DNA from: a virus | Strand: one strand, 5' to 3' | IMG/VR virus record: IMGVR_UViG_3300011738_000001 | DNA length: 14,893 nt | Shown here: positions 1 through 14,893 of the stretch, one piece after another | Layout: each line of letters opens with the position of its first letter | Position numbering within the stretch: position 1 is the stretch's first letter | Position numbers and translations under genes: made by a program | The notes under the pieces: generated by a model | The model's database searches: none | Told to the model about the DNA's origin: nothing | The model's input: only the letters and a program-made list of their open reading frames with translations

Positions 1-77
1 GTTATTGCTTGTGGTGTCATCAGCAAACGCTACGAATTGGCGAGAATCCTCGTTACCCAACTTTGCGCGTACTGAGT
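1..77. repeat. Terminal direct overlap, copy 1 (identical to 14817-14893)
   Basis: Compared base by base: 1-77 equals 14817-14893. The copies are in direct orientation and flush with both window ends. 77 is a common assembler k-mer, so this looks like a circular-contig overlap rather than a biological repeat. Confidence 0.97.
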
Positions 78-693
78 GTTCCAAGTATGTAGCTTTGTCC
101 ACGATTGGAGAGCGTGGGCGGGTGTAAGTCAAAGGCTGAGCAACTGGAGCTGCTGCCTTTACTTCTGCTGCCTCTACCGATACCTCAGTATCAGCGGCAA
201 CTTCTGGAGTATCGGTCATATCTGACCCTTCCTTTTCTGTGTTTGGATCATCTGAGGCAGCTACCTCAGAAACTCTTGCGCTGTCGATTGCAGGGCTTTC
301 AACTAGCGAAACTTCCTCAAGTGTGCTGGCAGTAATTACCATTACACCGTCTTTAATTTCATATTCATCAACCATAATGCCTACACTAAAGCCGTCGCGT
401 AATCCTTCGGCTGCCTCTACTAACGCGTCAGATCCAGCATTAGTTTTGCCTATCTTAAATACAGCATCAATACCCGTTTGGGTTTCGTTGTATTCTAAAA
501 CTTTACCTATGGCTCCGCGTGGCCTATCGTGTTCTAAAAATAATTTAACGTTTTTTAAAGCTATCGAGTTAGGTGCAAATTTAGTGCGACCTGCTGATGT
601 TCTACCTTCTTCGTTCCAGGTAACTATTGTGCCTGATATTGTGCGTGAATCGCTATCGGCAGCTGTAACTGCTACTGGGAATGTTAATTTCAT
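1..693 (-). CDS. N-terminal part of a protease-major capsid fusion ORF: HK97-type prohead protease domain plus acidic linker; continues across the junction into 14816->13986
   Basis: The ATG at 693-691 overlaps the portal stop (ATGA). My own translation is MKLTFPVAVTAADSDSRTISGTIVTWNEEGRTSAGRTKFAPNSIALKNVKLFLEHDRPRGAIGKV...GLRDGFSVGIMVDE...LEEVSLVESPAIDSARV, followed by an Asp/Glu/Ala-rich linker. LEHD, GFSVG and EVSLVxxPA are the hallmark His, Ser and C-terminal motifs of prohead protease family S78/U35. There is no stop codon before base 1. 693 nt is exactly 231 codons, and the frame matches the capsid ORF in the second repeat copy. The ORF track missed it because it is cut by the window edge. 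Confidence 0.85.
   Translation of the reverse strand, partial: MKLTFPVAVTAADSDSRTISGTIVTWNEEGRTSAGRTKFAPNSIALKNVKLFLEHDRPRGAIGKVLEYNETQTGIDAVFKIGKTNAGSDALVEAAEGLRDGFSVGIMVDEYEIKDGVMVITASTLEEVSLVESPAIDSARVSEVAASDDPNTEKEGSDMTDTPEVAADTEVSVEAAEVKAAAPVAQPLTYTRPRSPIVDKATYLEHSVRAKLGNEDSRQFVAFADDTTSNN
217..234 (-). promoter_or_regulatory. Candidate internal ribosome-binding site plus in-frame ATG (Met159) inside the protease-capsid ORF
   Basis: The minus strand reads GAAAAGGAAGGGTCAGATATGACC. AAGGAAGG (234-227) sits 7 nt upstream of the ATG at 219-217, just after the protease domain ends. Initiation here would give a 349-aa capsid precursor without the protease. Confidence 0.4.
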
Positions 694-1826
694 AATACTA
701 AGTCCTCTGCTCTGCGTATTTCATCAACTGATAAGACACCTATTCGGTTTAGTACCTCATAGACTTGGGCGCGCTCTAGTGGGTTACCACGCAAGAAGTC
801 ATCTAGCGCATATCTGACTGTTTGCGTCTGTGGCGTAAAGTCTGGCTGATCTAAACGCTGTTCGATCTGTGTAAGTATTGGGCGAAGGCTAAAGTCAACC
901 AAAGCCCTACGTTCTGACGTTACGTTTGAGTAAGTCATAGAATTAGTGTCTGCTGAAACGTACCAGGCAGGTATGTTCATAAGTCTAGCGATCTCAGTTG
1001 CAAGGTATTGACGTGCTTCGGTAAGTTGCAAAGACTTAGGATCAAAGCCAACAGATGTCATTTCAATGTCAGCATTAAGAAACGCTGTACCGCGTGTTTG
1101 ACGTGATTGTTTCCAGGCTTCCAGCAATTTGCTAATTCGCTCAGCTGGTAAATTAGCGCCAGTTGATTTAAGCGCGATAGTTGGTGTTGGCTCTAAAGCA
1201 AAATTGTATGCAGCCTTTTCTAATTCTAGGGCTGTCTTAATTGTGCGACCACCTCGAGTCAAGATACCTTCGTCACCACTAAAGACGACTAGCGATCCGA
1301 CACCTTGAGTAGGTAACTTGCCAACTAAATCTAAATCGTATGCAACGATCTCTGTACCTTGAGCGTTTAACTCAGGCACTACTCTAATTGGGTCAATGCG
1401 AGTCCAAGACTTAATACGGTTTGGATATTCCTCGTACACTTCAAGCACTTGACCATAAGCAACGCCGTAAAAAATTAAATCCTCAACTAGTAATCTGTAA
1501 ATTGTTTGTCCAGGCACTCTAGGATCAGGCTGGTTAATAACTTTAGGTGGCATTAGTACAGATCCGTCAATGCGTGACCGTACTTCAAGCGGAATAGAGC
1601 TAATAGTGCCTGCAATTATGTTTTTGGCTCTAGCAACTGCTGGAACTTGGACTGCAAGATCACGACTAATAGTCGGAGCTAGTCCGTAATTAAATACTGC
1701 CTGCTGTATTAGATTTGCAGGCGCAAGAGCTGCCACTAGATCGGCAGTTGATTGACTGTCAATATGTGACATAGTTTGAGTTGCGCGTAATGCGTCAAAT
1801 AATCCCATTGTAAGAGATTGTAACAT
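690..1826 (-). CDS. Portal protein (HK97-type)
   Basis: 378-aa ORF between the large terminase and the protease, which is the canonical position. Its size and general sequence character fit the Phage_portal family. Its stop overlaps the protease start (ATGA). Confidence 0.8.
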   Translation of the reverse strand: MLQSLTMGLFDALRATQTMSHIDSQSTADLVAALAPANLIQQAVFNYGLAPTISRDLAVQVPAVARAKNIIAGTISSIPLEVRSRIDGSVLMPPKVINQPDPRVPGQTIYRLLVEDLIFYGVAYGQVLEVYEEYPNRIKSWTRIDPIRVVPELNAQGTEIVAYDLDLVGKLPTQGVGSLVVFSGDEGILTRGGRTIKTALELEKAAYNFALEPTPTIALKSTGANLPAERISKLLEAWKQSRQTRGTAFLNADIEMTSVGFDPKSLQLTEARQYLATEIARLMNIPAWYVSADTNSMTYSNVTSERRALVDFSLRPILTQIEQRLDQPDFTPQTQTVRYALDDFLRGNPLERAQVYEVLNRIGVLSVDEIRRAEDLVL

Positions 1827-1837
1827 ACTGCAAGCGG

Positions 1838-3304
1838 TTACACCACAATAATATCTACGTCAGAATATTGGCGTGTCGCAACAGATACGACCATAGCAGT
1901 AGCAACCGCAGCTGTGACGTTTTCGTTACTTGCTCGTCTGCCAATAATCCAGCCACCGTCTGCAAAGTTAATCCTGGCACTTGACGCGATATGACGATTG
2001 AGTACCTGCTGGTCACCGTGTCTTAATCTGCCAGCTTCCATAGCGTTAAGTAACTGATCACAAGCCAAAGCAAAGTCTCGTCCGTCAATAGCTTTAGCCA
2101 ATATGCCACCTGAATTAAGGCGACTAGCTACGGCACTACCTGTATTCTTACTAAACTGAATCTCGGTCACGTCATAAGCCCTGCACCAGTCAGCAACACC
2201 GTTAGCCATTTCAAGATCGTCAATACTTGTTTCAGATTTCCATTCTTGGACTAAGCCAACCGCTATCTTGCCGTCATCTAGGACTTGAGCGCCAACTAGA
2301 GCTGCGTGATTTCGTCTAGGCGTAATGTCAAAGGCAAAGTAAGTAGGTTTGCCAGGCTCTAGCGATAATTCGAGATCAGCGCAATTAGTCCAGGCAGCAG
2401 GTGACCAAGGCGACTGCAAAGTTTCAACAAATTGGCAAAGGCACTCAGTACGCACGACCGCTTCAGGCTCATTCTTTGTAGCCATTAGGTTATCTATGTG
2501 AATTGTTCTACCCAAGGCAGGGTTAGCCGATTGCCAGGCGCTCATATCGTCAAGACTGCAACCCATAGGAGCTGACCACTCAAGCCAAAGCAAAGAATCT
2601 TTAGCACCTGCCATAGTTGCCATACCGCGTTCGCGTAATTGGTTAAGCACGATTGAGGTAGAGTCGCCTGCGTTGCTAAAGCCCATAAGCATAGGATTTG
2701 CAGCTGCTAGTTGAGTCTTAGTGATCGCAGACCAAGCGGCATAGTCTTTATGTTCTCGTAATTCGTCGAGGTAGATTGTTTCAGCACCGGCATATCCTCT
2801 ACCAGCTGAGTTATTAGCCACTACCTTAAACCTAGCGCCCGATAGCATTTGGATTTCCTCTTGCCCATTAGCCCGGCGCAGCTTCTTAACCTGTTTGGCT
2901 AAGTGATCGTAATTCTCAAAAAGTTCTACTACCTGGTTAAAGTGTTCTAGCGATACTGCCAATTTATGAGCTGAGAGGATCTGCAACTTCTCGCCCCATT
3001 CGGTCAAACCAAGCGCTATTCGTAATCTCATTAGGTGCGACTTGCCGTTTTGCCTAGATACTAAAGCAACTACCTGACTATTAGCCCACCGACCGTCAGG
3101 CTTGACTCGATGTGCCTCAGTTGCCACTAATTCTTGCCAGGGCATTAACGGCATATCCAAACTATTAGCAAAGTCGATCAACTCTTGACCCTTTGTAGGT
3201 AGATCATCTGTAAAGGGTGTGTGCAACCTCGGTTTTGTTTGTCCTAATAGGAGTTCGTTCGTACTACTAGGTGTCGTCAGGCTTTGATCGGTTTCTTTAA
3301 GCAT
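1838..3304 (-). CDS. terL: Terminase large subunit
   Basis: 488 aa. Carries a Walker A-like VSRQNGKS, a Walker B-like IYLDELREH, and the PWQ motif typical of Terminase_1 N-termini. Lies directly upstream of the portal gene. Confidence 0.9.
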   Translation of the reverse strand: MLKETDQSLTTPSSTNELLLGQTKPRLHTPFTDDLPTKGQELIDFANSLDMPLMPWQELVATEAHRVKPDGRWANSQVVALVSRQNGKSHLMRLRIALGLTEWGEKLQILSAHKLAVSLEHFNQVVELFENYDHLAKQVKKLRRANGQEEIQMLSGARFKVVANNSAGRGYAGAETIYLDELREHKDYAAWSAITKTQLAAANPMLMGFSNAGDSTSIVLNQLRERGMATMAGAKDSLLWLEWSAPMGCSLDDMSAWQSANPALGRTIHIDNLMATKNEPEAVVRTECLCQFVETLQSPWSPAAWTNCADLELSLEPGKPTYFAFDITPRRNHAALVGAQVLDDGKIAVGLVQEWKSETSIDDLEMANGVADWCRAYDVTEIQFSKNTGSAVASRLNSGGILAKAIDGRDFALACDQLLNAMEAGRLRHGDQQVLNRHIASSARINFADGGWIIGRRASNENVTAAVATAMVVSVATRQYSDVDIIVV

Positions 3305-3314
3305 TTAACGGATC

Positions 3315-3623
3315 TTAGTCCGGTTGCTTGAACGGCGAAGGAACGCGCTCAGTTTGATTTGGGGGTAAAAAGGAAAGGGGGGGTCGTGGGTGTCCTTTGC
3401 TCCTAAAAAAAGCCCCAGGGGCTGTTGTACGGTCTTTCTTGCCACTATTACAGGATATGCAAGCGGCCACTAGATTGTTCTCGTCGTGCATAGCACCGCC
3501 CTTAGATATGGGCTGTATGTGATCCACAGTTGTAGCTGTACCACCACAATAGTAGCAGCAGTAATCATCACGCTTTAATACTATGAGTCTTATCTTGCGC
3601 CAACGCTTATCGTATGTTGCCAT
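3315..3623 (-). CDS. HNH endonuclease (packaging-associated)
   Basis: Contains RDDYCCYYCGG...VDHIQPISKGG...NLVAACISCNSGK, i.e. the CxxC / DH / N / CxxC HNH zinc-finger pattern. The ORF track starts at 3656. I prefer the ATG at 3623-3621 (MATYDKRWRKIR), which forms a TAATG overlap with the upstream gene stop. The C-terminal ~40 aa are Pro-rich and of low complexity. Confidence 0.85.
   Translation of the reverse strand: MATYDKRWRKIRLIVLKRDDYCCYYCGGTATTVDHIQPISKGGAMHDENNLVAACISCNSGKKDRTTAPGAFFRSKGHPRPPLSFLPPNQTERVPSPFKQPD
3405..3423 (-). terminator. Terminator-like hairpin plus T-run embedded in the 3' part of the HNH ORF
   Basis: The minus strand reads AGCCC-CTG-GGGCT followed by TTTTTT. On the plus strand this is A7 at 3405-3411 and the palindrome agccccaggggct at 3411-3423. 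It lies inside coding sequence (APGAFFRSK), so function is uncertain. Confidence 0.25.
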
Positions 3624-3967
3624 TAGTACCAATTGTGGCGCTGATGATGAACCCAAGCATTACACCAGTTCTGGTATCTATGCTGTATGTATTCACTAAC
3701 CAACCTAAGCTGCCTTCGCATTGTCCAATTATCGGATTGAGTATGACCCAATTGGAATACACCCCAGTATTGCTTGTCCCTAGATAAAGCGAATTGGTTA
3801 AATCTTGATTCTTTGTATGCGATTGATAAAGCGCAATTGGCATTAGTACGATCATAGCTTCTACTTACATACCGTTCTATGCGTTTATCCACAGGTAAGG
3901 GTTGTTCAATACTAGGCTTTTGTGAGTAAAGCATTATGGTTATCAACATATCCACAAGCATAAGCAA
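3623..3967 (-). CDS. Lysozyme-like / SLT-type lytic transglycosylase domain protein
   Basis: LSIAYKESRFNQFALSRDKQYWGVFQLGHTQ matches the ES-x-F-N-x-x-A-x-S...G-x-x-Q signature of SLT and c-type lysozyme folds (catalytic Glu in KES). The start is uncertain: TTG at 3967, or ATG at 3961 preceded by AGGG. The stop overlaps the HNH ATG (TAATG). Confidence 0.6.
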   Translation of the reverse strand: MLMLVDMLITIMLYSQKPSIEQPLPVDKRIERYVSRSYDRTNANCALSIAYKESRFNQFALSRDKQYWGVFQLGHTQSDNWTMRRQLRLVSEYIQHRYQNWCNAWVHHQRHNWY

Positions 3968-4125
3968 ACCCTAATTAAATCGCTTAGGCAAGAGTTCGCC
4001 CTTCGGGGCGCTCTGCCTGGCCTCGGAAGCCGCTGACGCTGCCTGCTGAGTGTAATGCTTTGTCAAGTTTAAGCAAGTGATACACGGTTTATTCGCGTGT
4101 CGCCACGCACCGCACACACATCTAC
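3968..4125 (-). promoter_or_regulatory. GC-rich structured non-coding region between the early module and the packaging module (candidate regulatory / cos-pac region)
   Basis: No ORF on either strand. It is visibly more GC-rich than the flanks. On the minus strand it holds two hairpins, duplicated CAGGCAG motifs, and a weak promoter-like pair: TTGCTT (4076-4071), a 16-nt spacer, then TACACT (4054-4049). Confidence 0.4.
3987..4017 (-). terminator. Long bulged hairpin with UUCG/CGAA tetraloop
   Basis: The plus strand folds as ggc-a-agag-tt-cgccc-ttcg-gggcg-ctct-gcc, giving 12 paired positions with two small bulges. On the coding strand it lies about 110 nt downstream of the nuclease-like gene stop. 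There is no clean U-tract, so the terminator role is tentative. Confidence 0.35.
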
Positions 4126-4545
4126 TTATCTTAAAATCGGAAGTTCCCATATCTTTTCAGCCTCACTTGTATGTAAGTAGCCAATCATTTTAGGTATCTT
4201 GGTTTGGTTGCCGAAGGTAGTTGCTGGCATAAGCTCAGACACCCACTCAGGGCTATGGTTAATTAGATTAAATGCAAATACTCCGTTTGGTGTTGAGCAT
4301 ACATAGTATGGCACATATCTGCCTAGAAAGGCAGTAGTAACCAACCTTTGATATTTGGTGTATTCGATCAGCAGCTTGTCGTAATGGGTGCGCCTGCATT
4401 TAAGTTCAACATACATATTAAAGCGCTTAGACCAGCAGTCATAGACTGAGTATGGATTAGGGCTGGCAGTTAAATCGGGAACTATGTTTCTTAGGTAGTT
4501 AAATAGGTCGTATTCAGTCTGTATCATCATCACTCCAATCGTCAT
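4126..4545 (-). CDS. PD-(D/E)xK nuclease-fold protein (possible resolvase/endonuclease)
   Basis: 139 aa. VYDCWSKRFNMYVELKCR gives D-x11-E-L-K, the core PD-(D/E)xK arrangement, and a nearby KYQRL is reminiscent of the QxxxY motif. The start may instead be the ATG at 4527, which is preceded by GGAG at 5 nt. Confidence 0.45.
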   Translation of the reverse strand: MTIGVMMIQTEYDLFNYLRNIVPDLTASPNPYSVYDCWSKRFNMYVELKCRRTHYDKLLIEYTKYQRLVTTAFLGRYVPYYVCSTPNGVFAFNLINHSPEWVSELMPATTFGNQTKIPKMIGYLHTSEAEKIWELPILR

Positions 4546-4577: not shown

Positions 4578-4718
4578 TCATTGGGCGTAATAGTCACAAG
4601 CCACCTCTTTCAACGCCTGTTTCATAACCAGTAATGCGTTTAGCTGCTGCTGTTGCATTTCAATCATTGTAGCTATTATTGACTCCATTGAATCTAGCTT
4701 TTCACTTATTGTCATCAT
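4578..4718 (-). CDS. Small 46-aa helical protein (not in the ORF track)
   Basis: My own translation is MMTISEKLDSMESIIATMIEMQQQQLNALLVMKQALKEVACDYYAQ. The ATG at 4718 follows a GAGAGAG purine run and overlaps the end of the zinc-finger gene. The ORF fills an otherwise empty 156-nt gap in a genome with almost no non-coding DNA. Confidence 0.35.
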   Translation of the reverse strand: MMTISEKLDSMESIIATMIEMQQQQLNALLVMKQALKEVACDYYAQ

Positions 4719-4911
4719 CACTCTCTCTCATTTCTTGTCTAAATAGACCATTACCTAAGCAACGATCACAGGTTTCTTTGGTTTCTTTGATCTCGCCATT
4801 GTCATTGTCAAACTTGAGCCAATAGCCCATACCTACACAGGCTGGACACTCATTGGCGTCAGCAAACTCATTAGGTAACGTGTACATAAGCGGCATACCC
4901 TCTAGGCTCAT
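4702..4911 (-). CDS. Small DnaJ-type zinc-finger protein (two CxxCxGxG motifs)
   Basis: 69 aa with CPACVGMG and CDRCLGNG, both exact matches to the CxxCxGxG repeat of the DnaJ cysteine-rich domain. Has an acidic C-terminus. Its start overlaps the upstream stop (ATGA). Confidence 0.65.
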   Translation of the reverse strand: MSLEGMPLMYTLPNEFADANECPACVGMGYWLKFDNDNGEIKETKETCDRCLGNGLFRQEMRESDDDNK

Positions 4912-5579
4912 TTAAGGCTCTCAATCAGCTGTGAAGCATTAGCCCTAGATAACTGGTTAAGGCTTTCAACTTTGTAGCCTAGCTCTTTAGTTGCATATTC
5001 GTATGCGTCTAGTGCCTTTTCTGAACATAACTTTCGAATAAACCCTAATTGCTTAGGTGTTGCTGGCATATTGGTTGAGTTAATCACCGCTTTAGGCTCA
5101 GGTGGATTATCTGAAGGTGTCCAGGTATTCCAATCGCCAAACGGATCATCTAGTGGCTCGGGTGGTAATGGCAGGTCACTACCCCAGTCAAGCGGATTAG
5201 CGTCTTTGACTGCCTGGATCTCAGGCTTTACCATTTGCACTACCTTTGCCATTTCAGTACGGCTAGGGCGTGTTTTCTTAGGATCGCTGCCCTGGTAACC
5301 CATATTGGCTAATGCTCTACCTACTGCTGATGTTTCGCAATTCTCTAACGCAGCTGTGCGATTAACTGGACTGCTCCCGACTATTTCCTCAGCCCAACCA
5401 GTTGCCTTTAGCAGATCACCTATCCATATCTCCGCTTTGCAGACATACTGAATAGGCATACCCTCTTTGTTGCGTTCTATGTGGATCAGGGAAGTAACCA
5501 CACGAAGGTTTAGGTATTCTTTATGAGCTGCGTCTAAGCGTTCGGCTACTGTTTCGTAGTTATCAAGATTAAAGCCCAT
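4908..5579 (-). CDS. Rad52-family single-strand annealing protein (Sak-like recombinase) with C-terminal helical module
   Basis: NRTAALENCETSAVGRALANMGY aligns in spacing with the conserved Rad52 helix KEAVTDGLKRALRSFGN (T-x4-RAL-x3-G). The N-terminal NYETVAERLD and the beta-rich stretch fit the family. The C-terminal TPKQLGFIRKL...LSRANASQLIESL is a separate small helical domain. Confidence 0.6.
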   Translation of the reverse strand: MGFNLDNYETVAERLDAAHKEYLNLRVVTSLIHIERNKEGMPIQYVCKAEIWIGDLLKATGWAEEIVGSSPVNRTAALENCETSAVGRALANMGYQGSDPKKTRPSRTEMAKVVQMVKPEIQAVKDANPLDWGSDLPLPPEPLDDPFGDWNTWTPSDNPPEPKAVINSTNMPATPKQLGFIRKLCSEKALDAYEYATKELGYKVESLNQLSRANASQLIESLK

Positions 5580-5757
5580 AGCGTGCCCAATCGTAAATAA
5601 TCTTGCTGTGTGCTTGCTTCTCTCGGCTTATGTCGCCTAGTAATTGCTGATACTTTTCAGCTTCCATTTGACCCTTTAGCTTGCCTAATGCAAACCAAGT
5701 ACCAGTCCAGATAAATAAGATCACTAGCCATAAAGCCAGCTGTAATACTTCTAGCAT
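5569..5757 (-). CDS. Small membrane protein, first gene of the early module
   Basis: 62 aa. One clear hydrophobic helix (LQLALWLVILFIWTGTWFALG) is followed by a charged helical tail. GGAG lies 5 nt upstream of the ATG. Confidence 0.55.
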   Translation of the reverse strand: MLEVLQLALWLVILFIWTGTWFALGKLKGQMEAEKYQQLLGDISREKQAHSKIIYDWARYGL

Positions 5758-10018: not shown

Positions 10019-11700
10019 TACTGGGCAATAAACTCTGATACTAGTGGCAAGTTACCGTTTCGAGCGCCTTCATTTCTGATTACTTCTGCAATTGCTCTAG
10101 CTGCGCCTGCTGGGTCAATTAGGTTGCCAGTCACATTAACATTAACTGTTGGTGTGGTTTTTGGGTTCCTATTTGTTACGGGTATGCCAGTTCTAATAGA
10201 TTCAGCTACGTTAAATCCTTTGCCAAAGCCAAAAAAAGGATCGCCAAACTTTTCATTAAGACCTTCAATTACGCCGCCAAATTGGCTAATTAAGCCTAGG
10301 TCATCACTTAACGTTTGTATTTGTGATTTTGATAAACCTCTAATAGTAGGTACGGTTGCAGCTCCGCCAGTACCAGCACCGCCAGCACCAGGAGTAAAAG
10401 TTGGCAAAAAACTGCCACCACCACCACCACCGCCGGTAGGAGCTTTGCTTAAATTAACTAATTGGCGGTATTGGTTAGCCAAACCGTCATTAACATTATT
10501 TAACGCTCTGTATTGATCCTCTAAGCCTTTAGTAACTACTTTATTATCTTCAGCAAACACTCTAAACGCAGCTCTTAGATCTCCTTGCACAATTAAAACT
10601 AAAGCCTGCATACTCTTTATGATTAGGTTTATTAACTCTAGTATGGCTCTAAAAAATACAATAGGAGCATTTAAGGTAGCCAAACTTATTTCCTTAAATA
10701 CATTTTTCAAGAGTACGGCAACGTCGTTTTGTTCTCTAGTTGCGTCAGCTGCAAATCCTAGTCTTATTGTTAATTCCTTAAAACTTTCCTTTAAGGCGTC
10801 AACATTTTTAATAGAATAGTTTTTAATTTCTACGCTAGTATCTTTAAGACTTTGTATGAACTCTTTAACTCTAGGTACTAATTGAGTTCGTATGATTGGT
10901 ACTAAACTCTCGTTAAAAAATCTAAATAGATCAACTGCTACTGGTAATAATTGCTCGCCAATTTCTATCTTTGTGTTTTCTAACTCAGCAGTTAGTATTC
11001 TTTGCTGGTTTGCAAGTCCGTCTGATGTTCTAGCAAAGTCACCTTGAGCAGCACTTGTTTGTTCGTAAATAACTTTTTGGGCTGCTAATACTTTTTGCTG
11101 TGGGGTTAAAGCATTTTTAGTAGTGCTAATTAAACCAAGTTCTAATGCTGCGTTACGCAAAGTAGCGTCATCTAGTAATACACCAAACTGACGAAGTGGC
11201 TCAGCTTCTCCACGCAAAGCAGATCCAATAGCGTTAATAGCTTGCTCGGGGGTCGTGTTATTAAAAGAAGCAAGATCAGACGCTAAGCCTACAAAGTCAG
11301 TAGAGAAAGTTACTAATTCCTCACCTGCTAAGCCAGCAGCTCTACCAAAGGTTGCAAAGGTAGCTGACGCGTCTAAGGCTTGTTGCTTACTTTGACCAAA
11401 TTGTGCAGCTGCGGTGTCTGCAAACTTTTGTACTGCAACACTACCTTCGCCAAAGAGTACGTTTGTTTTGGCTAAGGTTTCGCTAAAGTCACTAGCAGCT
11501 CTAGTAGCGTCTATGCCTAACTTAACTGCAAAGGCGGCAGCAGCAATACCAGCAGCAGCGGCAGCTGCGCCAACTTTCTTAAAGGTATCACCAATTCGAT
11601 TGCCGGAGTTACCAGTTTCGTTTTCGGCTTTTTTTAAGCCTTTAACTAAATCATCTGTATCAGCAAGGATAGATAGTTTAAGAGTACGATTGCCTGCCAT
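10018..11700 (-). CDS. Tail tape measure protein
   Basis: This is the largest ORF (560 aa) and sits downstream of the chaperone. It has an N-terminal Ala-rich hydrophobic segment and the conserved FG..S...AL.A.A.F..FGRAAGL...F..DFVGLASDLASFNN core. It also has long helical stretches and a Gly-rich segment. Confidence 0.9.
   Translation of the reverse strand: MAGNRTLKLSILADTDDLVKGLKKAENETGNSGNRIGDTFKKVGAAAAAAGIAAAAFAVKLGIDATRAASDFSETLAKTNVLFGEGSVAVQKFADTAAAQFGQSKQQALDASATFATFGRAAGLAGEELVTFSTDFVGLASDLASFNNTTPEQAINAIGSALRGEAEPLRQFGVLLDDATLRNAALELGLISTTKNALTPQQKVLAAQKVIYEQTSAAQGDFARTSDGLANQQRILTAELENTKIEIGEQLLPVAVDLFRFFNESLVPIIRTQLVPRVKEFIQSLKDTSVEIKNYSIKNVDALKESFKELTIRLGFAADATREQNDVAVLLKNVFKEISLATLNAPIVFFRAILELINLIIKSMQALVLIVQGDLRAAFRVFAEDNKVVTKGLEDQYRALNNVNDGLANQYRQLVNLSKAPTGGGGGGGSFLPTFTPGAGGAGTGGAATVPTIRGLSKSQIQTLSDDLGLISQFGGVIEGLNEKFGDPFFGFGKGFNVAESIRTGIPVTNRNPKTTPTVNVNVTGNLIDPAGAARAIAEVIRNEGARNGNLPLVSEFIAQ
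10415..10435 (-). repeat. Trinucleotide repeat (CCA)5(CCG)2 encoding a Gly7 run in the tape measure
   Basis: Read directly from the sequence: ccaccaccaccaccaccgccg. On the coding strand this is GGC GGT GGT GGT GGT GGT GGC. Confidence 0.9.
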
Positions 11701-12158
11701 TAGAACCTATCCAGTATTTTTTCAAAGCCTTTTTCCCATTTTTCAATAAGTTCAGGCTGTTCTTGTCTTAGTGTTGGATAAATAAAATATCCAGCATTAC
11801 CACGACCTTTATTTGGTGATCGTCCAGGAAATTGTTTGTAACGCCTAGATCCAAACTCTAAACCATAGAGAATATCTTGAGTGTTACCGCCACCGCTTAA
11901 TTTTTGACTAGCAAACCCATACTTAAATTCACCGATCTTGCTAGACTTAGCAATACGAACACCGTCAGCAACTTTAATAGATCCTTTAGGATATTTGCTA
12001 TTGCGTCTAGCAGCAGCTTTAATTTGGTCAGCAGCATACTCAGCAAGTTCACCTGATAATTTTTTAGTTTGATCTATTGCTTCATCGTCCATAGCCTTGA
12101 AAGATTTAAGGATTTGGCGTAGGTCGGCTTTGTTGTATTCAACTTTAACGTCAGCCAT
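11700..12158 (-). CDS. HK97 gp10-family protein (tail completion / head-tail joining), in an unusual position
   Basis: 152 aa. MADVKVEYNKADLRQILKSF..., YGLEFGS and YFIYPTLRQEQPELIEKW mirror the family pattern (N-terminal I-x-G-x-x-E-L, Y-G-x-x-x-EFGT, PF-x-x-P). AAGGAG lies 5 nt upstream of the ATG. Confidence 0.55.
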   Translation of the reverse strand: MADVKVEYNKADLRQILKSFKAMDDEAIDQTKKLSGELAEYAADQIKAAARRNSKYPKGSIKVADGVRIAKSSKIGEFKYGFASQKLSGGGNTQDILYGLEFGSRRYKQFPGRSPNKGRGNAGYFIYPTLRQEQPELIEKWEKGFEKILDRF

Positions 12159-12533
12159 TACGCTCCTTTAATATCTCTAATGCGGTTAAAATATCCTCTG
12201 CATTATCCCAATACTGCATAGGTATCTTTGTTGCGATAGCAAGTTCAACTATTAGTCGTCCGAGGCTACCGCTTGGGTGGGGTTTACTGCTGTTTCCTCT
12301 ATTTCAATATCTGCAACTGTGGCGCACCAGTTATCTAAACTTAGCGCTGCCTTGTTTGGATTTTCTCGCTTCATAGCGTGATAAGCCAAGAACATAAGAT
12401 CGCTAATGCCAAGTGAAGGATCTTTGCTGATCTTTTGACCAGTTTCTAGTTCCCACTTGCGCCACTCAGGCGGTGCAGCTACATAAGTAGCTTGATCGCC
12501 TGTGTTTGTAGTTATTTTAATATTTAGTTTCAT
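12151..12533 (-). CDS. Predicted -1 frameshift product of the tail assembly chaperone (G-T-like, about 127 aa)
   Basis: After A_AAC_CCC (12285-12279) the -1 frame stays open for 42 codons (HPSGSLGRLIVELAIATKIPMQYWDNAEDILTALEILKERNG). It ends at the TGA at 12153-12151, which overlaps the next gene's ATG. This extension explains the otherwise empty 93-nt gap. Confidence 0.5.
12252..12533 (-). CDS. Tail assembly chaperone (G-like, frame 0 product)
   Basis: 93 aa and acidic, between the major tail and tape measure genes. A slippery heptamer lies near its 3' end, with an open -1 frame downstream. Confidence 0.65.
   Translation of the reverse strand: MKLNIKITTNTGDQATYVAAPPEWRKWELETGQKISKDPSLGISDLMFLAYHAMKRENPNKAALSLDNWCATVADIEIEETAVNPTQAVASDD
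12279..12285 (-). promoter_or_regulatory. Candidate -1 programmed ribosomal frameshift heptamer A_AAC_CCC
   Basis: The plus strand reads ggggttt at 12279-12285. On the coding strand the frame-0 codons are GTA AAC CCC, which is the X_XXY_YYZ register. Confidence 0.5.
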
Positions 12534-12557
12534 TGTGTTCTCCCGATTGTATTTTGT

Positions 12558-12968
12558 TTAGCTAAAGGTTTCTGTTACTGTGCCTTTGGATACCTTGAAG
12601 GTAAAAGATACTGTTTGTGCGTCAGTTCCAGCGCCACCTGCACTTGGAAACTCTGGTAGGCAGTCAAACGCAAATACTGCGCCTGTTGCTGCTGTCATAG
12701 TTACGGTAAAGGTTGCGTCAGGTGTTTCTGCTGCTGTCCATAGAGCTTCACATACTGAGCTAGTCTTGCCCCAGTCTGCCAAGATCTCTAATGCAAACTC
12801 AGCTTCTACGTTTGTGGTTTTGTAAGCTTCGCCGTCAAGAGTTTGGTATGTCTGACGATCGTTTGTTTTTGTTAGTACAGCAGATGTCGCTTGTGCGTCA
12901 ATATCGGTTCCCAAAGAGCCCGAGAAAGATAAAGATACGTCCCTGCCTGTGATTACTGTTGTTGCCAT
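12558..12968 (-). CDS. Major tail (tube) protein
   Basis: 136 aa, Thr/Ala/Gly-rich with beta-type composition. Located directly upstream of the chaperone and tape measure genes. Confidence 0.7.
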   Translation of the reverse strand: MATTVITGRDVSLSFSGSLGTDIDAQATSAVLTKTNDRQTYQTLDGEAYKTTNVEAEFALEILADWGKTSSVCEALWTAAETPDATFTVTMTAATGAVFAFDCLPEFPSAGGAGTDAQTVSFTFKVSKGTVTETFS

Positions 12969-12976
12969 ATTGCTTC

Positions 12977-13348
12977 CTAGTTTGTGTAGTAGGTTGATAC
13001 ATTAAAATCAGCCACGAGTAAGTCACTCGCACCGACTTGCGTAATTGACGGGCGATCTACTGCCCCAACTACATAATTAGCAGGCAGAGCTGCTAAGACC
13101 GATAGTAGCAGCGTTTCTAGATTGTCTAGGGCTGCTTCGTTGCTGTAATAACCAACTGCAACGGTAATAGTAAAATTAAGTTTGCACCTAATAACAGATT
13201 TGCTTATGGTTTCGAACTCTATGTACGGGCTGTCCGGCACAATAACGATAGCCGGTGGAATAACAGACTCAGGTACAGAATTGTAAACGTTAGCGGCAAT
13301 ACCGCTTAAAGCTGTTTCTAGAGCAGTACGGGTTGCACTTATTGGCAT
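12977..13348 (-). CDS. Tail terminator-like / neck protein
   Basis: 123 aa between the adaptor and the major tail protein. The N-terminal pattern ALETALSGIAANVYNSVPESVIPPAIVIVP resembles the DUF3168 tail terminator-like family. Confidence 0.45.
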   Translation of the reverse strand: MPISATRTALETALSGIAANVYNSVPESVIPPAIVIVPDSPYIEFETISKSVIRCKLNFTITVAVGYYSNEAALDNLETLLLSVLAALPANYVVGAVDRPSITQVGASDLLVADFNVSTYYTN

Positions 13349-13914
13349 AGCGACTCGACATCAATGAACGGCGCAAGTAGAGCCTGGACACGATTGACGA
13401 GGCTTCTGCCCATACGGTACGGAGTTGGTGCAAAGTCCACGCCCTCTATCTGCCCACCTGCTGCGGTACGTGATTGGAATACTTCAACGCTTACTACATA
13501 AACTGCGGACTCTATTGCGTCGTTGCCTACATAAGTAGAAGCTCCCGATAGGGTGGCTAGACCACTTGGAATTACGTTTGCTTCGTTAATATCGGCGTTT
13601 GTGATCGCAGCAGCAAACGAATACTCGCCTAAATTATCATCATCTAAGATCGTGCGAGTGCCATTGTAAGGTGAGCCACAACCTGTAATAACTACTGATT
13701 GACCAGCGCTAAATACGTTCTCGCCAAGAGTAGTAAAGATTGCTACGTTATCTGAAAGTTTAGTACTCCCGATTGGGGCAGCATATTTTTCTAGCATAGG
13801 CAGAATAACGGCCTCAGCTGTATCTATTATTTGATCTAAATATGCGTCATTGTAAAGTGATGAGGATACGCCAAGAACAGATCGCAGCTGAGTGGCTGTG
13901 ATTATTGAAGGCAT
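13339..13914 (-). CDS. Head-tail adaptor (gp6-like), unusually long
   Basis: 191 aa, the first gene after the capsid gene. The N-terminal ITATQLRSVLGV...DAYLDQIIDTAEAVILPML resembles the gp6-like connector family. The C-terminal RVQALLAPF is typical of adaptor C-termini. AAGGAG lies 5 nt upstream of the ATG. Confidence 0.5.
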   Translation of the reverse strand: MPSIITATQLRSVLGVSSSLYNDAYLDQIIDTAEAVILPMLEKYAAPIGSTKLSDNVAIFTTLGENVFSAGQSVVITGCGSPYNGTRTILDDDNLGEYSFAAAITNADINEANVIPSGLATLSGASTYVGNDAIESAVYVVSVEVFQSRTAAGGQIEGVDFAPTPYRMGRSLVNRVQALLAPFIDVESLCQ

Positions 13915-13929
13915 ATCTACTCCTTTAAT

Positions 13930-13965
13930 GAGAGGTGAGCGCTCGGGAGAACACGCCCACCCCTC
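13930..13965 (-). promoter_or_regulatory. 12-bp hairpin immediately downstream of the capsid gene (mRNA stabiliser or attenuating terminator)
   Basis: On the minus strand, GAGGGGTGGGCG pairs with CGCTCACCTCTC around a 12-nt loop. Two of the pairs are G-U, so they are A-C mismatches in the plus-sense fold. No U-tract follows. Confidence 0.5.
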
Positions 13966-13985
13966 GATCTAGTTTGTGTTACTTA

Positions 13986-14893
13986 TCAGGTTAGGTTGAA
14001 CCAGTTTGCGCCAGCAGCGATCTTGGTTGCTAGTGCGCCATATCCGTAGTATGAAACCTCGATCTGACCATTTAGGGCAACGTTGGTTTGTAGGCGAATA
14101 CGTGGAGATTCGTACCAGGTGTAAGCGTCTGGGTTTACTACGACCATTGAATAGTCAGCAGTACCAACACCGCCTGAACCTGTAAAGTTACGATCTACAT
14201 ACAGATCCAAACCTAATACGTTTCCGCGTAGGCTTGTTGGGCTTACGGCACCAGCAGCGTTTTGTGGCTGTGAGGCTGTGTAGATTGGACGACCTGCGTC
14301 GTTGTATCCCATAATGTTTGCCCATTGGTCAGGTGTAACTACCAAGTTACGAGCAAAGCCAAGAGAAGCTGCATAAACGGCAGCTGAGGCACTTGCTACA
14401 TAAGCAACAATACCCTCTTTGTCATTGTCTTGAGCGCTTGCGTTTAGAGTTCCGTCAATTTGGATCTTGTTTGCTACGAAAGCGTCTGTGGCTTTTGCAT
14501 ATGCAAACTCCATTTGCTTTACCAATTCAGTAAAAAATACTGGGTTGGAGCGATCTAGTAATTCTACTGAAAAAGTCTGTCCGCCTGCATACTTGTTTAC
14601 GTTTACAGTTATGAAAGAGTTTGTCATACCTGTTTCGCCAATTGCATCAGCTTCGTTTACGTCTGCAACAGTTGGTACTGCTGTAATCTTTGGAATCTCA
14701 AAGCTCATACCTGCGTCAGGTAGTGCGCCTGTTGAAATAGCAGAAATCATTGGCCTATCAGCGTTTGATAATGGGTTAATAATCTCTGTTAGCTGACGTG
14801 TTGGGATCAAGCCTGAGTTATTGCTTGTGGTGTCATCAGCAAACGCTACGAATTGGCGAGAATCCTCGTTACCCAACTTTGCGCGTACTGAGT
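13986..14893 (-). CDS. Major capsid protein domain (HK97 fold), C-terminal part of the protease-capsid fusion ORF
   Basis: Motifs such as FEIPKITAVPTV and FITVNVNKYAGGQTFSVELLDRSNP..F.ELVKQM.FAYAKATD fit the Phage_capsid (HK97-like) pattern. The ORF is open to the window edge. The start at 14876 in the track is a TTG that is internal to the longer ORF reading in from 693->1. Confidence 0.85.
   Translation of the reverse strand, partial: SVRAKLGNEDSRQFVAFADDTTSNNSGLIPTRQLTEIINPLSNADRPMISAISTGALPDAGMSFEIPKITAVPTVADVNEADAIGETGMTNSFITVNVNKYAGGQTFSVELLDRSNPVFFTELVKQMEFAYAKATDAFVANKIQIDGTLNASAQDNDKEGIVAYVASASAAVYAASLGFARNLVVTPDQWANIMGYNDAGRPIYTASQPQNAAGAVSPTSLRGNVLGLDLYVDRNFTGSGGVGTADYSMVVVNPDAYTWYESPRIRLQTNVALNGQIEVSYYGYGALATKIAAGANWFNLT
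14817..14893. repeat. Terminal direct overlap, copy 2 (identical to 1-77)
   Basis: Same comparison as copy 1. The capsid ORF reads straight through this segment in frame. Confidence 0.97.

What the first reader, a model, noticed from the sequence alone, without database searches (positions are those of the whole stretch)
1..14893. Complete, circularly closed ~14.8-kb tailed-phage genome with every gene on one strand
The two window ends share an exact 77-nt direct overlap, and a 507-codon ORF reads in frame through the junction. That argues the closure is real rather than chimeric. The 14,816 unique bases hold a full packaging, head, tail and lysis set plus a 5-6 gene early module, about 27 genes in total. 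Only three non-coding gaps exceed 70 nt. From memory, the smallest described siphovirus-type genomes are about 14-17 kb (Rhodococcus phage RRH1, small Arthrobacter and Microbacterium phage clusters), so this sits at the lower size limit. By eye the GC content looks mid-40s percent, which would be atypical for those high-GC hosts. I cannot assign a host or test novelty from sequence alone.
Basis: partly seen in the sequence, partly recalled or inferred. Interest (0 to 1): 0.75.

Follow-up and report, generated by a model that had tools for sequence, protein, structure and literature searches.

The report
Complete small cos-type freshwater-style siphophage genome
The window is the whole 14.8-kb genome of a very small tailed phage from an abundant uncultured lineage that is already heavily sampled in public metagenomes, so it is a tidy new member of a known kind, not a new kind of virus.

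Summary
The window ends share an exact 77-nt overlap, leaving 14,816 unique bases at 44.0% GC. A 507-codon fused protease-capsid ORF crosses the junction, and all credible genes lie on the minus strand.

The junction is native. Eight independently assembled contigs run collinearly across it. A roughly 90%-identical 15.5-kb relative closes on itself at a different position.

"Circular" describes the assembly, not the virion. At least 11 contigs of this lineage start at window base 3378 and four end at 3390. These ends flank an 11-nt CCACGACCCCC that lies inside the 3' tail of the HNH ORF, 75 nt upstream of terL. The site aligns with the mapped termini of Microbacterium cluster EE phages, which have 3' overhangs. 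The virion DNA is therefore most likely linear with cohesive ends.

No replisome genes are present. The early region carries a Rad52/Sak-like annealing protein, an Hjc-like resolvase and a Bxb1-gp47-type metallophosphoesterase.

The closest cultured relatives are small actinophages at 23-39% amino-acid identity. IMG/VR holds at least 600 related contigs, and a JGI contig is 100% identical. Freshwater "miniphages" of this size were described in 2019.

The parts
1..77 (.). Terminal overlap, identical to 14817-14893. It marks assembly closure. It lies inside the protease-capsid gene.
   Evidence: Exact 77-nt match. Contigs L001-L007 and L082 run collinearly across 14816|1 at 84-93% identity.
1..693 (-). 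5' part of the 507-aa prohead-protease / major-capsid fusion gene (start codon at 693).
   Evidence: ORF wraps the junction. Peptidase_S78 covers aa 9-145 and Phage_capsid_4 covers aa 263-493. phrog_2263, E 2e-67. [quoted passage not shown]
13986..14893 (-). 3' part of the protease-capsid fusion gene (stop at 13986).
690..1826 (-). Portal protein (378 aa).
   Evidence: Phage_portal, E 1e-38. Best cultured hits are 14-16 kb actinophages: Penoan, Adaia, RRH1 and the ~15.5-kb Arthrobacter phages such as Maggie (cluster AN from memory).
1838..3304 (-). Large terminase (488 aa). It is the first gene after the inferred left genome end.
   Evidence: phrog_9, E 1.5e-66. 32% identity to Arthrobacter phage terminases.
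3379..3389 (-). Inferred cohesive-end (cos) core, CCACGACCCCC on the coding strand. The left genome end starts at 3378 and the right duplex end stops at 3390.
   Evidence: Left end, family-wide: 35 of 77 IMG/VR contigs with a true 5' end begin 40-120 nt upstream of terL.
Left end, this lineage: 9 of 17 contigs carrying the left-end motif start exactly at 3378, and Logan contig L203 also does.
Right end: contigs end exactly at 3390 in L094/L223, L214, L217 and L221, plus L121-123 and L127 at the homologous position.
Contigs that keep the 11-mer: L100 (followed by Illumina adapter), L205 and L200.
The site aligns with the mapped termini of phage PoRanda.
3315..3656 (-). HNH endonuclease. The HNH domain is aa 34-79. 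The last ~24 codons lie beyond the cos core, so the ORF is whole only in circular or concatemeric DNA.
   Evidence: PF01844, E 2e-10. Sequence read. JGI gene calls give the same stop. The ORF crosses the cos core in L010 and L116 as well.
3623..3967 (-). Small SLT-like protein (114 aa; start codon uncertain).
   Evidence: phrog_35836, E 1e-20. SLT domain weak, E 0.007.
3971..4150 (-). 59-aa Cys-rich protein, function unknown.
   Evidence: ORF conserved at 86-100% in close relatives. No family hit.
4126..4545 (-). Hjc-like PD-(D/E)XK nuclease, a putative Holliday-junction resolvase (139 aa).
   Evidence: AF2 model with pLDDT 87.5. Foldseek top hits are Hjc 2wcw, E 2.7e-4, prob 1.0, TM 0.54-0.60. 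D36, E47 and K49 are invariant. JGI names one homolog 'Holliday junction resolvase'.
4578..4721 (-). 47-aa ORF, function unknown.
   Evidence: Conserved in close relatives only.
4702..4911 (-). 69-aa protein with two CxxCxGxG zinc-finger motifs.
   Evidence: DnaJ_CXXCXGXG, E 3e-5, below the Pfam cutoff.
4908..5579 (-). Putative single-strand annealing protein (223 aa). It has a Rad52/Sak-like N-terminal domain and a Red-beta-CTD-like C-terminal helical domain.
   Evidence: PF27148 Slr1353_N in precomputed hits. AF2 pLDDT exceeds 80-90 over residues 11-100. Foldseek hits: 80alpha Sak 8qe9, Mgm101 and RAD52 (prob 0.98-1.0, E 2e-3 to 3e-2), and Red-beta CTD with TM 0.67. The evidence is weak but consistent.
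5569..5757 (-). 62-aa protein with a hydrophobic N-terminus. It is the first gene after the main intergenic gap.
5758..5912 (-). Main non-coding region. A GC-rich hairpin (5883-5910) follows the metallophosphoesterase stop directly. Promoter-like hexamers and a strong Shine-Dalgarno sequence follow it. This is the likely late-terminator / early-promoter boundary.
   Evidence: No iterons or repeats were found.
5913..6656 (-). Metallophosphoesterase of the Bxb1 gp47 / mycobacteriophage cluster A type (247 aa).
   Evidence: phrog_221, E 3e-73. 44% identity to mycobacteriophage MPEs, and about 1,100 of 1,111 records hit are actinophages. The family's role in phage DNA replication and its nuclease activity come from PMC11795197 and PMC12287305.
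6653..7017 (-). Two small membrane proteins (64 aa and 56 aa), putative holins.
   Evidence: Hydrophobic segments visible in the translations. They sit after the endolysin. PoRanda has the same arrangement.
6989..7243 (-). 84-aa DUF7213-like ORF that overlaps its neighbours. It is probably real, but its start is uncertain.
   Evidence: DUF7213, E 8.5e-6. phrog_4307, E 4e-7.
7170..7691 (-). M23 peptidase endolysin (173 aa) with a Lys/Pro-rich tail.
   Evidence: PF01551, E 1e-25.
7691..7897 (-). 68-aa protein downstream of the fibre gene, function unknown.
   Evidence: Conserved at 38-55% across the family.
7907..8671 (-). Tail fibre / receptor-binding protein (254 aa). It is a swapped cassette in near relatives.
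   Evidence: phrog_38058, E 2e-12. The region is replaced in the ~90%-identical contig L116.
8684..10018 (-). Minor tail protein (444 aa), inferred as distal tail / tip from its position after the tape measure. It contains an internal W-rich repeat.
   Evidence: Position. No family hit. Internal 96-nt-spaced repeat.
10018..11700 (-). Tape measure protein (560 aa). It is hypervariable between close relatives.
   Evidence: phrog_7025, E 1e-21. Only 29% aa identity to the TMP of L116, while the flanking genes are 79-89% identical.
11700..12158 (-). 152-aa protein between the chaperone and the tape measure, function uncertain (weak Neck1 / tail-completion hit).
   Evidence: phrog_5, E 5e-5. Conserved across the family.
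12151..12533 (-). Tail assembly chaperone. The G form is 93 aa (12533-12252). The -1 frameshifted GT form is 127 aa, with slippery A_AAC_CCC at 12285-12279 and its stop at 12153-12151.
   Evidence: The -1 frame stays open through the 'gap'. In 45 of 45 distinct relatives the -1 frame is open for 33-42 codons, and an in-frame AAACCCC or CCCAAAA lies 24-33 nt before the stop. Coordinates.
12558..12968 (-). Major tail protein (136 aa).
   Evidence: phrog_4574, E 9e-6. Position.
12977..13348 (-). Tail terminator-like protein (123 aa).
   Evidence: phrog_22278 and phrog_17840.
13339..13914 (-). Probable head-to-tail adaptor (191 aa).
   Evidence: Position. Weak Phage_connect_1 hit, E 0.055. Conserved at 34-69% across the family.
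13915..13985 (-). Intergenic region after the capsid gene, with a GC-rich hairpin and a strong Shine-Dalgarno sequence.
   Evidence: Sequence read.

Best explanation
The window is the complete genome (14,816 bp) of a small, probably virulent, siphovirus-type tailed phage. It belongs to a large uncultured lineage distantly related to the small-genome actinophages: Microbacterium cluster EE (Orlajensenviridae), the ~15.5-kb Arthrobacter phages (cluster AN from memory), Curtobacterium phage Penoan and Rhodococcus phage RRH1.

Shown:
- The assembly closes on itself and the junction is native.
- All genes are on one strand, in this order: terL, portal, fused protease-capsid, adaptor, terminator, major tail, chaperone (G/GT by -1 frameshift), g152, tape measure, minor tail, fibre, M23 endolysin, two membrane proteins, metallophosphoesterase. 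A 155-nt intergenic region follows, then seven small early genes, then HNH.

Inferred with good support:
- Virion DNA is linear. It is cut by terminase plus HNH at a cos site whose 11-nt core, CCACGACCCCC (window 3389-3379), lies inside the 3' tail of the HNH ORF.
- The ends are most likely 3'-protruding.
- After injection the ends anneal and are ligated, which restores the HNH ORF. Circular or concatemeric forms explain the closed assembly.

Inferred with moderate support:
- The phage encodes no polymerase, helicase or primase.
- It relies on the host replisome, helped by a recombination toolkit: a Rad52/Sak-like annealing protein, an Hjc-like junction resolvase and a Bxb1-gp47-type Mre11-like phosphoesterase. 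These would make and resolve concatemers for packaging.

Inferred host: a monoderm, most likely a low-GC aquatic member of the Actinomycetota.
For: Closure:
- Exact 77-nt overlap, with a 507-codon ORF through it.
- Eight independent contigs are collinear across the junction.
- IMG/VR contig 3300005528_000380 (15,484 nt) aligns over about 85% of the genome in blocks of 80-93% identity. It has its own 286-nt terminal overlap at a different position and the same gene set.
- JGI and Logan contigs are 100% identical.

Family and synteny.

Cos site:
- Pile-up of contig ends upstream of terL.
- Nucleotide-exact left ends.
- Nucleotide-exact right ends.
- Illumina adapter directly after the 11-mer in L100.
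- Alignment with the experimentally mapped termini of PoRanda. Cluster EE has 3' overhangs (PMC9671004).

Frameshift.

Recombination genes; PMC11795197 and PMC12287305.

Host:
- Structural homologs among cultured phages come almost only from actinophages.
- About 1,100 of 1,111 phage records hit by the metallophosphoesterase are actinophages.
- MPE, g139 and M23 are shared at 40-65% identity with whiB-encoding contigs at 43-47% GC, many of them 38-41 kb.
- No spanin-like gene pair was seen by eye. Shine-Dalgarno sites are strong.

No tRNA or Rfam hit. No integrase or repressor appeared in any family scan.
Against: - No reads were available, so termini and coverage are inferred from where other people's contigs stop.
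- Overhang polarity is not settled. Most ends lack the 11-mer, as expected if 3' overhangs are trimmed in end repair. However L100, L200, L205 and L008 keep it, and L082 and L205 start 5 nt further out.
- No small terminase was identified.
- The SSAP assignment rests on Foldseek E-values of only 2e-3 to 5e-2.
- The host has no direct evidence. No member of the lineage carries whiB. The three GTDB MAGs that hold related contigs are Saprospiraceae, Rhodoferax and Terrimicrobiaceae.
- The habitat of the source samples could not be looked up.
Confidence: 0.85

Rival explanations
1. The genome is truly circular in the particle, or is packaged by a headful mechanism as circularly permuted, terminally redundant DNA. 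In that case the closed assembly reflects the physical form and there are no fixed ends.
For: The window, L116 and several other contigs read straight through the proposed cos site. The assembly closes.
Against: At least 11 contigs of this lineage start at the same nucleotide, 3378. Four end at 3390. Other sub-lineages have homologous exact ends. An HNH gene sits next to terL, as in HNH-dependent cos phages. The site aligns with mapped cos ends of cluster EE phages. Read-through contigs are expected from replicating or annealed DNA.
Confidence: 0.07
2. The window is a fragment or excised form of a larger integrated prophage, and the closure is an assembly artefact or an excision product. The 144 nt of bacterial-looking sequence on the JGI contig would then be a host flank.
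For: JGI contig Ga0120090_100150 carries 144 nt of an HMGL-like cellular gene fragment fused to the phage sequence.
Against: The fusion point is exactly the first base of the cos 11-mer (3389). That fits a chimeric tip at a free DNA end. No integrase, excisionase or repressor was found. None of roughly 140 related loci shows cellular flanks. The contigs in the three MAGs are phage-only. Two independent closures exist. Related contigs top out at 13.5-17.5 kb.
Confidence: 0.03
3. It is a satellite or phage-inducible island that depends on a helper phage, not an autonomous virus.
For: Very small size, and no DNA polymerase, primase or helicase.
Against: It encodes its own terminase, portal, capsid with protease, a complete tail set with tape measure and fibre, an endolysin and holin-like proteins. 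The cultured relatives of 14-17.5 kb in the GenBank collection have the same layout, and from my own knowledge they are plaque-forming, autonomous phages.
Confidence: 0.02
4. The description of the genome is right, but the host is a Gram-negative freshwater bacterium (for example Bacteroidota, Burkholderiales or Verrucomicrobiota), not an actinobacterium.
For: Related contigs were binned into Saprospiraceae, Rhodoferax and Terrimicrobiaceae MAGs. No whiB occurs in any of 143 lineage loci. A few portal and MPE hits are to phages of Gram-negative hosts.
Against: The three bins disagree with one another and the contigs carry no cellular genes, which is typical of mis-binning. Capsid, terminase and MPE homologs are overwhelmingly from actinophages. 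Three genes are shared with whiB-encoding phages. No spanin pair was seen by eye. Strong Shine-Dalgarno sites argue against Bacteroidota.
Confidence: 0.2

Closest known systems
Microbacterium cluster EE phages (Orlajensenviridae, e.g. PoRanda MT498065, 17.5 kb)
   Same: The structural and lysis gene order is the same. Both have a fused major capsid-protease protein, an M23 endolysin followed by two membrane proteins, and an HNH gene at the right end next to cos. Neither has replisome genes. The cos sequences are alignable: a C-rich overhang followed by a TTTTCACC-like element. Cluster EE has 3' overhangs (PMC9671004).
   Different: Only 6 genes show detectable similarity, at 23-39% aa identity, and there is no nucleotide similarity. 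GC is 44% versus 69%. There is no reverse-strand regulatory block (Lsr2 or HTH genes). No gene lies between cos and terL, whereas EE has gp1 and gp2 there. The HNH ORF runs across cos. The genome is 2.7 kb shorter. It carries the MPE, SSAP-like and Hjc-like genes that are not annotated in PoRanda.
Other cultured small-genome actinophages: Rhodococcus phage RRH1 (14,270 bp), ~15.5-kb Arthrobacter phages such as Maggie (cluster AN from memory), Arthrobacter phage Adaia, Curtobacterium phage Penoan (15.3 kb)
   Same: They give the best portal matches, at 29-33% identity. They also appear among the capsid-fusion matches. Size class is similar.
   Different: Sequence relationship is remote. Their hosts are soil actinobacteria, which are high-GC from my own knowledge. 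RRH1 is smaller than this genome, so the window sets no size record.
Freshwater 'miniphages' (Kavagutti et al. 2019, PMC6802176) and the small actinoviral clade of Lake Biwa / G4 actinophage (Okazaki et al. 2019, bioRxiv 10.1101/655167)
   Same: These are circularly assembled tailed-phage genomes of 13.5-20 kb at roughly 42-62% GC. They are abundant and recurrent. Tail genes such as the tape measure diversify between near-identical genomes, which is what is seen here between the window and L116.
   Different: Those actinophage calls rest largely on whiB, which this lineage lacks. I could not obtain their sequences, so membership in the published clades is untested. The habitat of the window's own sample could not be verified.
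HK97-type HNH-dependent cos packaging
   Same: An HNH endonuclease is encoded next to the terminase across the cos site. The portal is HK97-family and the prohead protease is S78.
   Different: No small terminase was recognised. The cos core sits inside the HNH ORF instead of in an intergenic region.
Bxb1 gp47 / mycobacteriophage cluster A metallophosphoesterase
   Same: 44% aa identity over the full length, phrog_221. The family is needed for phage DNA replication and has nuclease activity (PMC11795197, PMC12287305).
   Different: There is no serine integrase partner here, so a recombination-directionality role is excluded. The gene sits at the end of the late operon.

Membership tests
Caudoviricetes (HK97-fold tailed phages) | Large terminase, portal and HK97-fold major capsid protein | tested here: met
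   phrog_9 E 1.5e-66; Phage_portal E 1e-38; Phage_capsid_4 and phrog_2263 E 2e-67. PF05065 appears in the JGI annotation.
Siphovirus-type long non-contractile tail | Major tail protein, G/GT chaperone with programmed frameshift, tape measure; no sheath or baseplate wedge genes | tested here: met
   phrog_4574 and phrog_7025. Conserved -1 frameshift in 45/45 relatives. No sheath family hit in any scan. Morphology itself is not observable.
Small-genome actinophages with fused capsid-protease (cluster EE / AN / RRH1 type) | Prohead protease and major capsid protein in a single ORF | tested here: met
   S78 covers aa 9-145 and the capsid domain covers aa 263-493 in one 507-aa ORF. 96% query coverage against EE fusion proteins.
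Orlajensenviridae (ICTV family of cluster EE phages) | Monophyly and substantial shared orthologous gene content with family members | tested here: inconclusive
   6 of about 25 genes are detectably homologous, at 23-39% identity. That is below the 35% gene-content cut-off used for clusters (PMC9671004). Synteny and the cos site are shared. No proteome tree was built.
Orlajensenviridae genera | At least 70% nucleotide identity over the genome with a member | tested here: not met
   No megablast hit. blastn finds only a 97-nt patch, to mycobacteriophage MPE genes.
cos-packaging phages with HNH accessory nuclease | Fixed genome termini with a short single-stranded overhang; HNH gene adjacent to terminase across cos | tested here: met
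   Nucleotide-exact contig ends at 3378 and 3390, flanking an 11-mer. HNH stops 10 nt before terL. This is indirect evidence, since no read-terminus data or virion DNA were available.
Freshwater miniphages / small actinoviruses (Kavagutti 2019; Okazaki 2019) | Circularly assembled genome of about 13.5-20 kb | tested here: met
   14,816 nt, closed.
Freshwater miniphages / small actinoviruses (Kavagutti 2019; Okazaki 2019) | whiB gene, used as the actinophage hallmark | tested here: not met
   The regex for the WhiB Cys cluster + GxWGG found none in the window or in 143 lineage loci. It found 39 in non-lineage loci that share the MPE. Pfam scans also gave no Whib hit.
Freshwater miniphages / small actinoviruses (Kavagutti 2019; Okazaki 2019) | Freshwater origin and sequence relatedness to the published genomes | not testable with these tools
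   Sample accessions were not found in the paper library. The published genomes are not in the phage collection.
Temperate phage / prophage | Integrase, repressor, att site or cellular flanks | tested here: not met
   No such family in any scan. No tRNA. Related contigs are phage-only.
Rad52/Sak-type single-strand annealing proteins (for g223) | Beta-beta-beta-alpha core fold with ssDNA-binding groove; ring oligomer; annealing activity | tested here: inconclusive
   The model has H11-21, three strands and a long helix 71-92, at pLDDT above 80-90. Foldseek top hits are Sak, Mgm101 and RAD52, but with E of only 2e-3 to 3e-2. No sequence-level hit in PDB. Activity is untested.
Hjc-type Holliday junction resolvases (for g139) | PD-(D/E)XK fold with catalytic D...E-x-K | tested here: met
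   pLDDT 87.5. Hjc hits with E 2.7e-4, prob 1.0. D36, E47 and K49 are invariant in 19 homologs. Junction cleavage itself is untested.

The most novel reading that the evidence does not exclude
This lineage would be a family-level group of near-minimal autonomous siphoviruses of low-GC aquatic Actinomycetota with two unusual features.

1. The cos cleavage site is embedded in the coding sequence of the HNH packaging nuclease. That gene is then split in the virion and rebuilt only when the genome circularises. This would couple expression of a complete HNH protein to genome circularisation or concatemer formation.

2. Replication runs without any phage replisome gene. It would be driven by a three-part recombination kit: a Rad52-like annealase, an Hjc-like resolvase and an Mre11-like phosphoesterase.
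Probability: 0.3. Interest if true: 0.55.

Novelty: new member of a known kind. Interest (0 to 1): 0.33.

Why it matters
Genomes of 14-15 kb sit close to the minimum for an autonomous tailed phage. That makes them useful for asking which functions are indispensable.

This one shows how tightly such a genome can be packed. It is 97-98% coding, the capsid is fused to its protease, and the cos site lies inside a gene. A chaperone frameshift fills an apparent gap, and replication is outsourced to the host with only recombination helpers kept.

The lineage is very common in public metagenomes but has no cultured or formally described representative. A clean reference genome with mapped ends and a gene map has practical value for annotation and for host-linkage studies. 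It does not change any concept.

Tried and rejected
- Megablast and blastn against 50,697 GenBank phage records found nothing except a 97-nt MPE patch.
- tRNA and Rfam scans were empty.
- The search of GTDB representative genomes for a host or prophage context gave only three phage-only, inconsistently binned contigs.
- Profile searches of g223 and g139 against PDB sequences gave nothing significant. Only fold comparison helped.
- Pfam at E up to 1 for the unannotated structural proteins g152 and g444 gave nothing usable. g191 gave only a weak connector hit.
- The repeat search found no iterons or origin-like repeats.
- The sigma-70 promoter scan found fewer sites than the shuffled controls, so no promoter claim is made beyond position.
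- I could not learn the habitat from sample or run accessions, reach the G2/G4 actinophage records or open Ghai et al. 2017.
- I considered that the pile-up of contig ends might be an assembly break at a conserved/variable boundary. I rejected this because the ends coincide to the nucleotide across samples and sub-lineages. One end is also followed by an Illumina adapter, and the site aligns with mapped EE termini.
- I considered the 144-nt cellular fragment on the JGI contig as a prophage flank. I rejected it because it joins exactly at the cos 11-mer.

Full report
OBSERVATION

The two window ends share an exact 77-nt direct overlap. This leaves 14,816 unique bases at 43.96% GC. On the circularised sequence, a 507-codon ORF on the minus strand starts at 693, crosses the junction and stops at 13986. 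All ORFs with family support lie on the minus strand. The five longest plus-strand ORFs have no PHROG hit. Coding density is 97.1%. From my own knowledge, 77 is a common final assembler k-mer length. I therefore read the overlap as a cycle in the assembly graph, not as a physical terminal repeat.

IS THE CLOSURE REAL?

Yes.
- Eight contigs assembled from other samples (L001-L007, L082) align collinearly across 14816|1 at 84-93% identity.
- The closest full-length IMG/VR relative is 3300005528_000380 (15,484 nt, 44.4% GC). It aligns over about 85% of the genome in blocks of 80-93% identity.
- That contig has its own 286-nt terminal overlap (98.3% identity) at a different position, window ~13349-13634. 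It has the same genes in the same order.
- JGI contig Ga0120090_100150 (14,979 nt) and several Logan contigs are 100% identical to the window over the parts held.
- Related contigs in IMG/VR reach at most 13.5-17.5 kb.

GENE CONTENT

In the direction of transcription the genes are:
1. terL (3304-1838).
2. Portal (1826-690).
3. A single ORF fusing an S78 prohead protease to an HK97-type capsid protein (693 to 13986).
4. A probable adaptor (13914-13339).
5. A tail-terminator-like protein (13348-12977).
6. Major tail protein (12968-12558).
7. A 93-aa chaperone (12533-12252).
8. A 152-aa protein (12158-11700).
9. Tape measure (11700-10018).
10. A 444-aa minor tail protein (10018-8684).
11. A fibre (8671-7907).
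12. A 68-aa protein (7897-7691).
13. An M23 endolysin (7691-7170).
14. A small DUF7213-like ORF and two membrane proteins (7243-6653).
15. A metallophosphoesterase (6656-5913).
16. The 155-nt gap.
17. Seven small early ORFs (5757-3623).
18. An HNH endonuclease (3656-3315), which ends 10 nt before terL.

No tRNA or Rfam family was found. No integrase or repressor appeared.

A 'GAP' THAT IS CODING

The -1 frame relative to the 93-aa gene is open from 49 nt before its stop, through the whole 93-nt 'gap'. It ends 8 nt inside the next gene. A canonical slippery heptamer, A_AAC_CCC, lies in frame at 12285-12279. The predicted GT product is 127 aa. In 45 of 45 distinct relatives (35-100% identity), the -1 frame is open for 33-42 codons past the stop. 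In each, an in-frame AAACCCC or CCCAAAA lies 24-33 nt before the stop. The +1 frame is usually closed within a few codons. This is the classic tail-assembly-chaperone frameshift.

PHYSICAL ENDS

Left end:
- Among 77 IMG/VR contigs with a true 5' end, 35 begin 2,600-2,799 nt before the capsid gene. That is 40-120 nt upstream of terL.
- Within sub-lineages these starts coincide to the nucleotide.
- For the window's own lineage, 9 of 17 IMG/VR contigs carrying CTTTCCTTTTTACCCCCAAATCR begin exactly one base before it, at window 3378. So does Logan contig L203.

Right end:
- L094/L223, L214, L217 and L221 stop exactly at ...GGACAC, window 3390.
- L121-123 and L127 stop at the homologous base in another sub-lineage.

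Between the two ends lies an 11-mer, CCACGACCCCC (3389-3379). It is conserved in divergent sub-lineages.

Homology with a mapped cos site:
- Joining the deposited right and left ends of Microbacterium phage PoRanda gives ...CCGACACCCCGCCCCA|GTTGGCATTTTCACCAGATCAG.
- This aligns with ...GGACACCCACGACCCCC|xTTGGGAAGATTTTCCCTGAAAATGG and places the PoRanda junction at the same position.
- Cluster EE termini are 3' single-stranded overhangs (PMC9671004).

Polarity:
- Most ends lack the 11-mer. This is what end repair does to 3' overhangs.
- A few ends keep it: L100 (followed directly by AGATCGGAAG, the Illumina adapter), L205, L200 and L008.
- L082 and L205 start 5 nt further out.
- I therefore regard the 3' polarity as likely, not proven.

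Position in the gene map: the 11-mer lies in the codons for PRPP in the HNH tail. The HNH domain is complete upstream of it. About 24 codons and the stop lie on the other genome end. The ORF is therefore whole only after circularisation. No ORF lies between the left end and terL, and no small terminase was recognised.

THE CELLULAR FRAGMENT

The JGI contig begins with 144 nt unrelated to the phage. These encode part of an HMGL-like enzyme. They are joined exactly at base 3389, the first base of the 11-mer. I read this as a chimeric tip on a free DNA end, not as a prophage flank. No other contig shows cellular flanks.

REPLICATION

No polymerase, primase or helicase is present.
- The metallophosphoesterase is 44% identical to those of cluster A mycobacteriophages, including Fromanvirus records, the genus that from my own knowledge contains Bxb1. 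Bxb1 gp47 is required for phage DNA replication, is Mre11-like and has limited exonuclease activity (PMC11795197). A related mycobacteriophage protein degrades host DNA (PMC12287305).
- g139 folds with pLDDT 87.5 into an Hjc-type resolvase fold. The top hit has E 2.7e-4, prob 1.0 and TM 0.54-0.60. D36, E47 and K49 are invariant.
- g223 has a confidently modelled N-terminal domain. Its best fold matches are the 80alpha Sak annealase, Mgm101 and RAD52. Its C-terminal helical domain matches the SSB-binding domain of Red-beta. E-values are weak, at 2e-3 to 5e-2.

Together these suggest recombination-assisted replication on the host replisome, with junction resolution before packaging. This step is inference.

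RELATIVES AND HOST

Cultured relatives:
- The capsid fusion matches cluster EE phages best, at 27% identity and 96% coverage.
- The portal matches Penoan, Adaia, RRH1 and the ~15.5-kb Arthrobacter phages (cluster AN from memory) at 29-33%.
- terL matches Arthrobacter phages at 32%.
- PoRanda shares the structural gene order, but only six genes are detectably similar, at 23-39%.

Uncultured relatives:
- The exact g223 protein occurs in 43 blocks of the contig collection.
- The 90%-identity clusters of terL, portal and g223 have 60-149 members from JGI, NCBI, ENA and Logan. All are unnamed beyond automatic labels.

Host clues:
- The lineage spans 39.5-48% GC.
- None of 143 lineage loci has a whiB-like gene. 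However, 39 non-lineage contigs that share the MPE (60-65%), g139 (40-43%) or M23 (42%) do.
- Many of those whiB-encoding contigs are 38-41 kb. The 18 large loci I tabulated have 43-47% GC.
- The three MAG assignments (Saprospiraceae, Rhodoferax, Terrimicrobiaceae) disagree, and those contigs are phage-only.
- I infer an actinobacterial, probably low-GC aquatic host, with moderate confidence.

WHAT IS ALREADY KNOWN

- Kavagutti et al. 2019 (PMC6802176) reported a pronounced ~15-kb peak in freshwater phage genome sizes. They found 155 complete 'miniphages' under 15 kb, the smallest 13.5 kb.
- Okazaki et al. 2019 (bioRxiv 10.1101/655167) described a monophyletic clade of 14.0-19.8-kb actinoviruses, with tape-measure diversification between near-identical genomes.
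- The same pattern is seen here. The tape measure is 29% identical between the window and L116, although neighbouring genes are 79-89% identical. The fibre cassette is swapped.
- RRH1, at 14,270 bp, is smaller than this genome.

VERDICT

The window is a complete, one-strand, 14.8-kb siphovirus-type genome. It is not circular in the particle and it sets no size record. Its kind and its near-identical copies already exist in public data, though without a cultured or named representative.

The added value is:
- a nucleotide-level cos site embedded in the HNH gene;
- the chaperone frameshift;
- a minimal recombination-type replication module.

Interest is modest.

Noticed in passing
window 3315-3656 with 3379-3389: The HNH ORF runs across the inferred cos core. 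Its last ~24 codons and stop lie on the opposite genome end. No non-coding DNA surrounds cos. The same holds in L010, where the HNH stop even overlaps the terL start.
   Followed up: partly
L200 1-144 (JGI Ga0120090_100150): A 144-nt fragment of an HMGL-like cellular gene is fused exactly to the first base of the cos 11-mer on a contig that is otherwise 100% identical. It is probably a chimeric tip at a free DNA end.
   Followed up: partly
L100 3' end (IMGVR_UViG_3300046010_001510): This public IMG/VR contig ends with AGATCGGAAG, the untrimmed Illumina adapter, directly after the cos 11-mer.
   Followed up: no
window 10018-11700 and 7693-8565 versus L116: The tape measure is only 29% identical, and the fibre region is replaced, between genomes that are ~93% identical elsewhere. 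These are localised hypervariable tail cassettes.
   Followed up: partly
window 4908-5579; alignment A1: g223 homologs keep the N-terminal domain but swap the C-terminal domain between sub-lineages. One form is a helical KQxxFIRxL domain (Red-beta-CTD / GemA-like). The other is a Cys-rich zinc-ribbon-like domain.
   Followed up: no
L124-L186 (loci): The metallophosphoesterase, and sometimes g139 and M23, are shared at 40-65% identity with whiB-encoding phage contigs of two size classes, about 16 kb and about 38-41 kb. This suggests a common gene pool among aquatic actinophages.
   Followed up: partly
L083, L084, L085: Phage-only contigs of this lineage are binned into Saprospiraceae, Rhodoferax and Terrimicrobiaceae MAGs in GTDB representative genomes. 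This is likely mis-binning.
   Followed up: partly
window 5883-5910: An 11-bp GC-rich hairpin follows the metallophosphoesterase stop directly. On the coding strand it has no U-tract.
   Followed up: no
window 9426-9572: The 444-aa minor tail protein has an internal repeat spaced 96 nt apart (W-x-x-I/V-D-P-x-L-x-W motifs), with a third degenerate copy near the C-terminus.
   Followed up: no
L207 7321-7929; L214 1367-1498; L215 562-693: Some close relatives carry extra early genes that the window lacks. One is a faint N6_N4 methyltransferase hit. Another is a 43-aa NikA-like ORF inserted after g223.
   Followed up: no
L205 7889-8337: In one relative that shares the window's exact g223 protein, the automatic gene calls skip the M23 endolysin and call the overlapping 84-aa DUF7213 ORF instead. 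The coding status and start of that ORF deserve a check.
   Followed up: no
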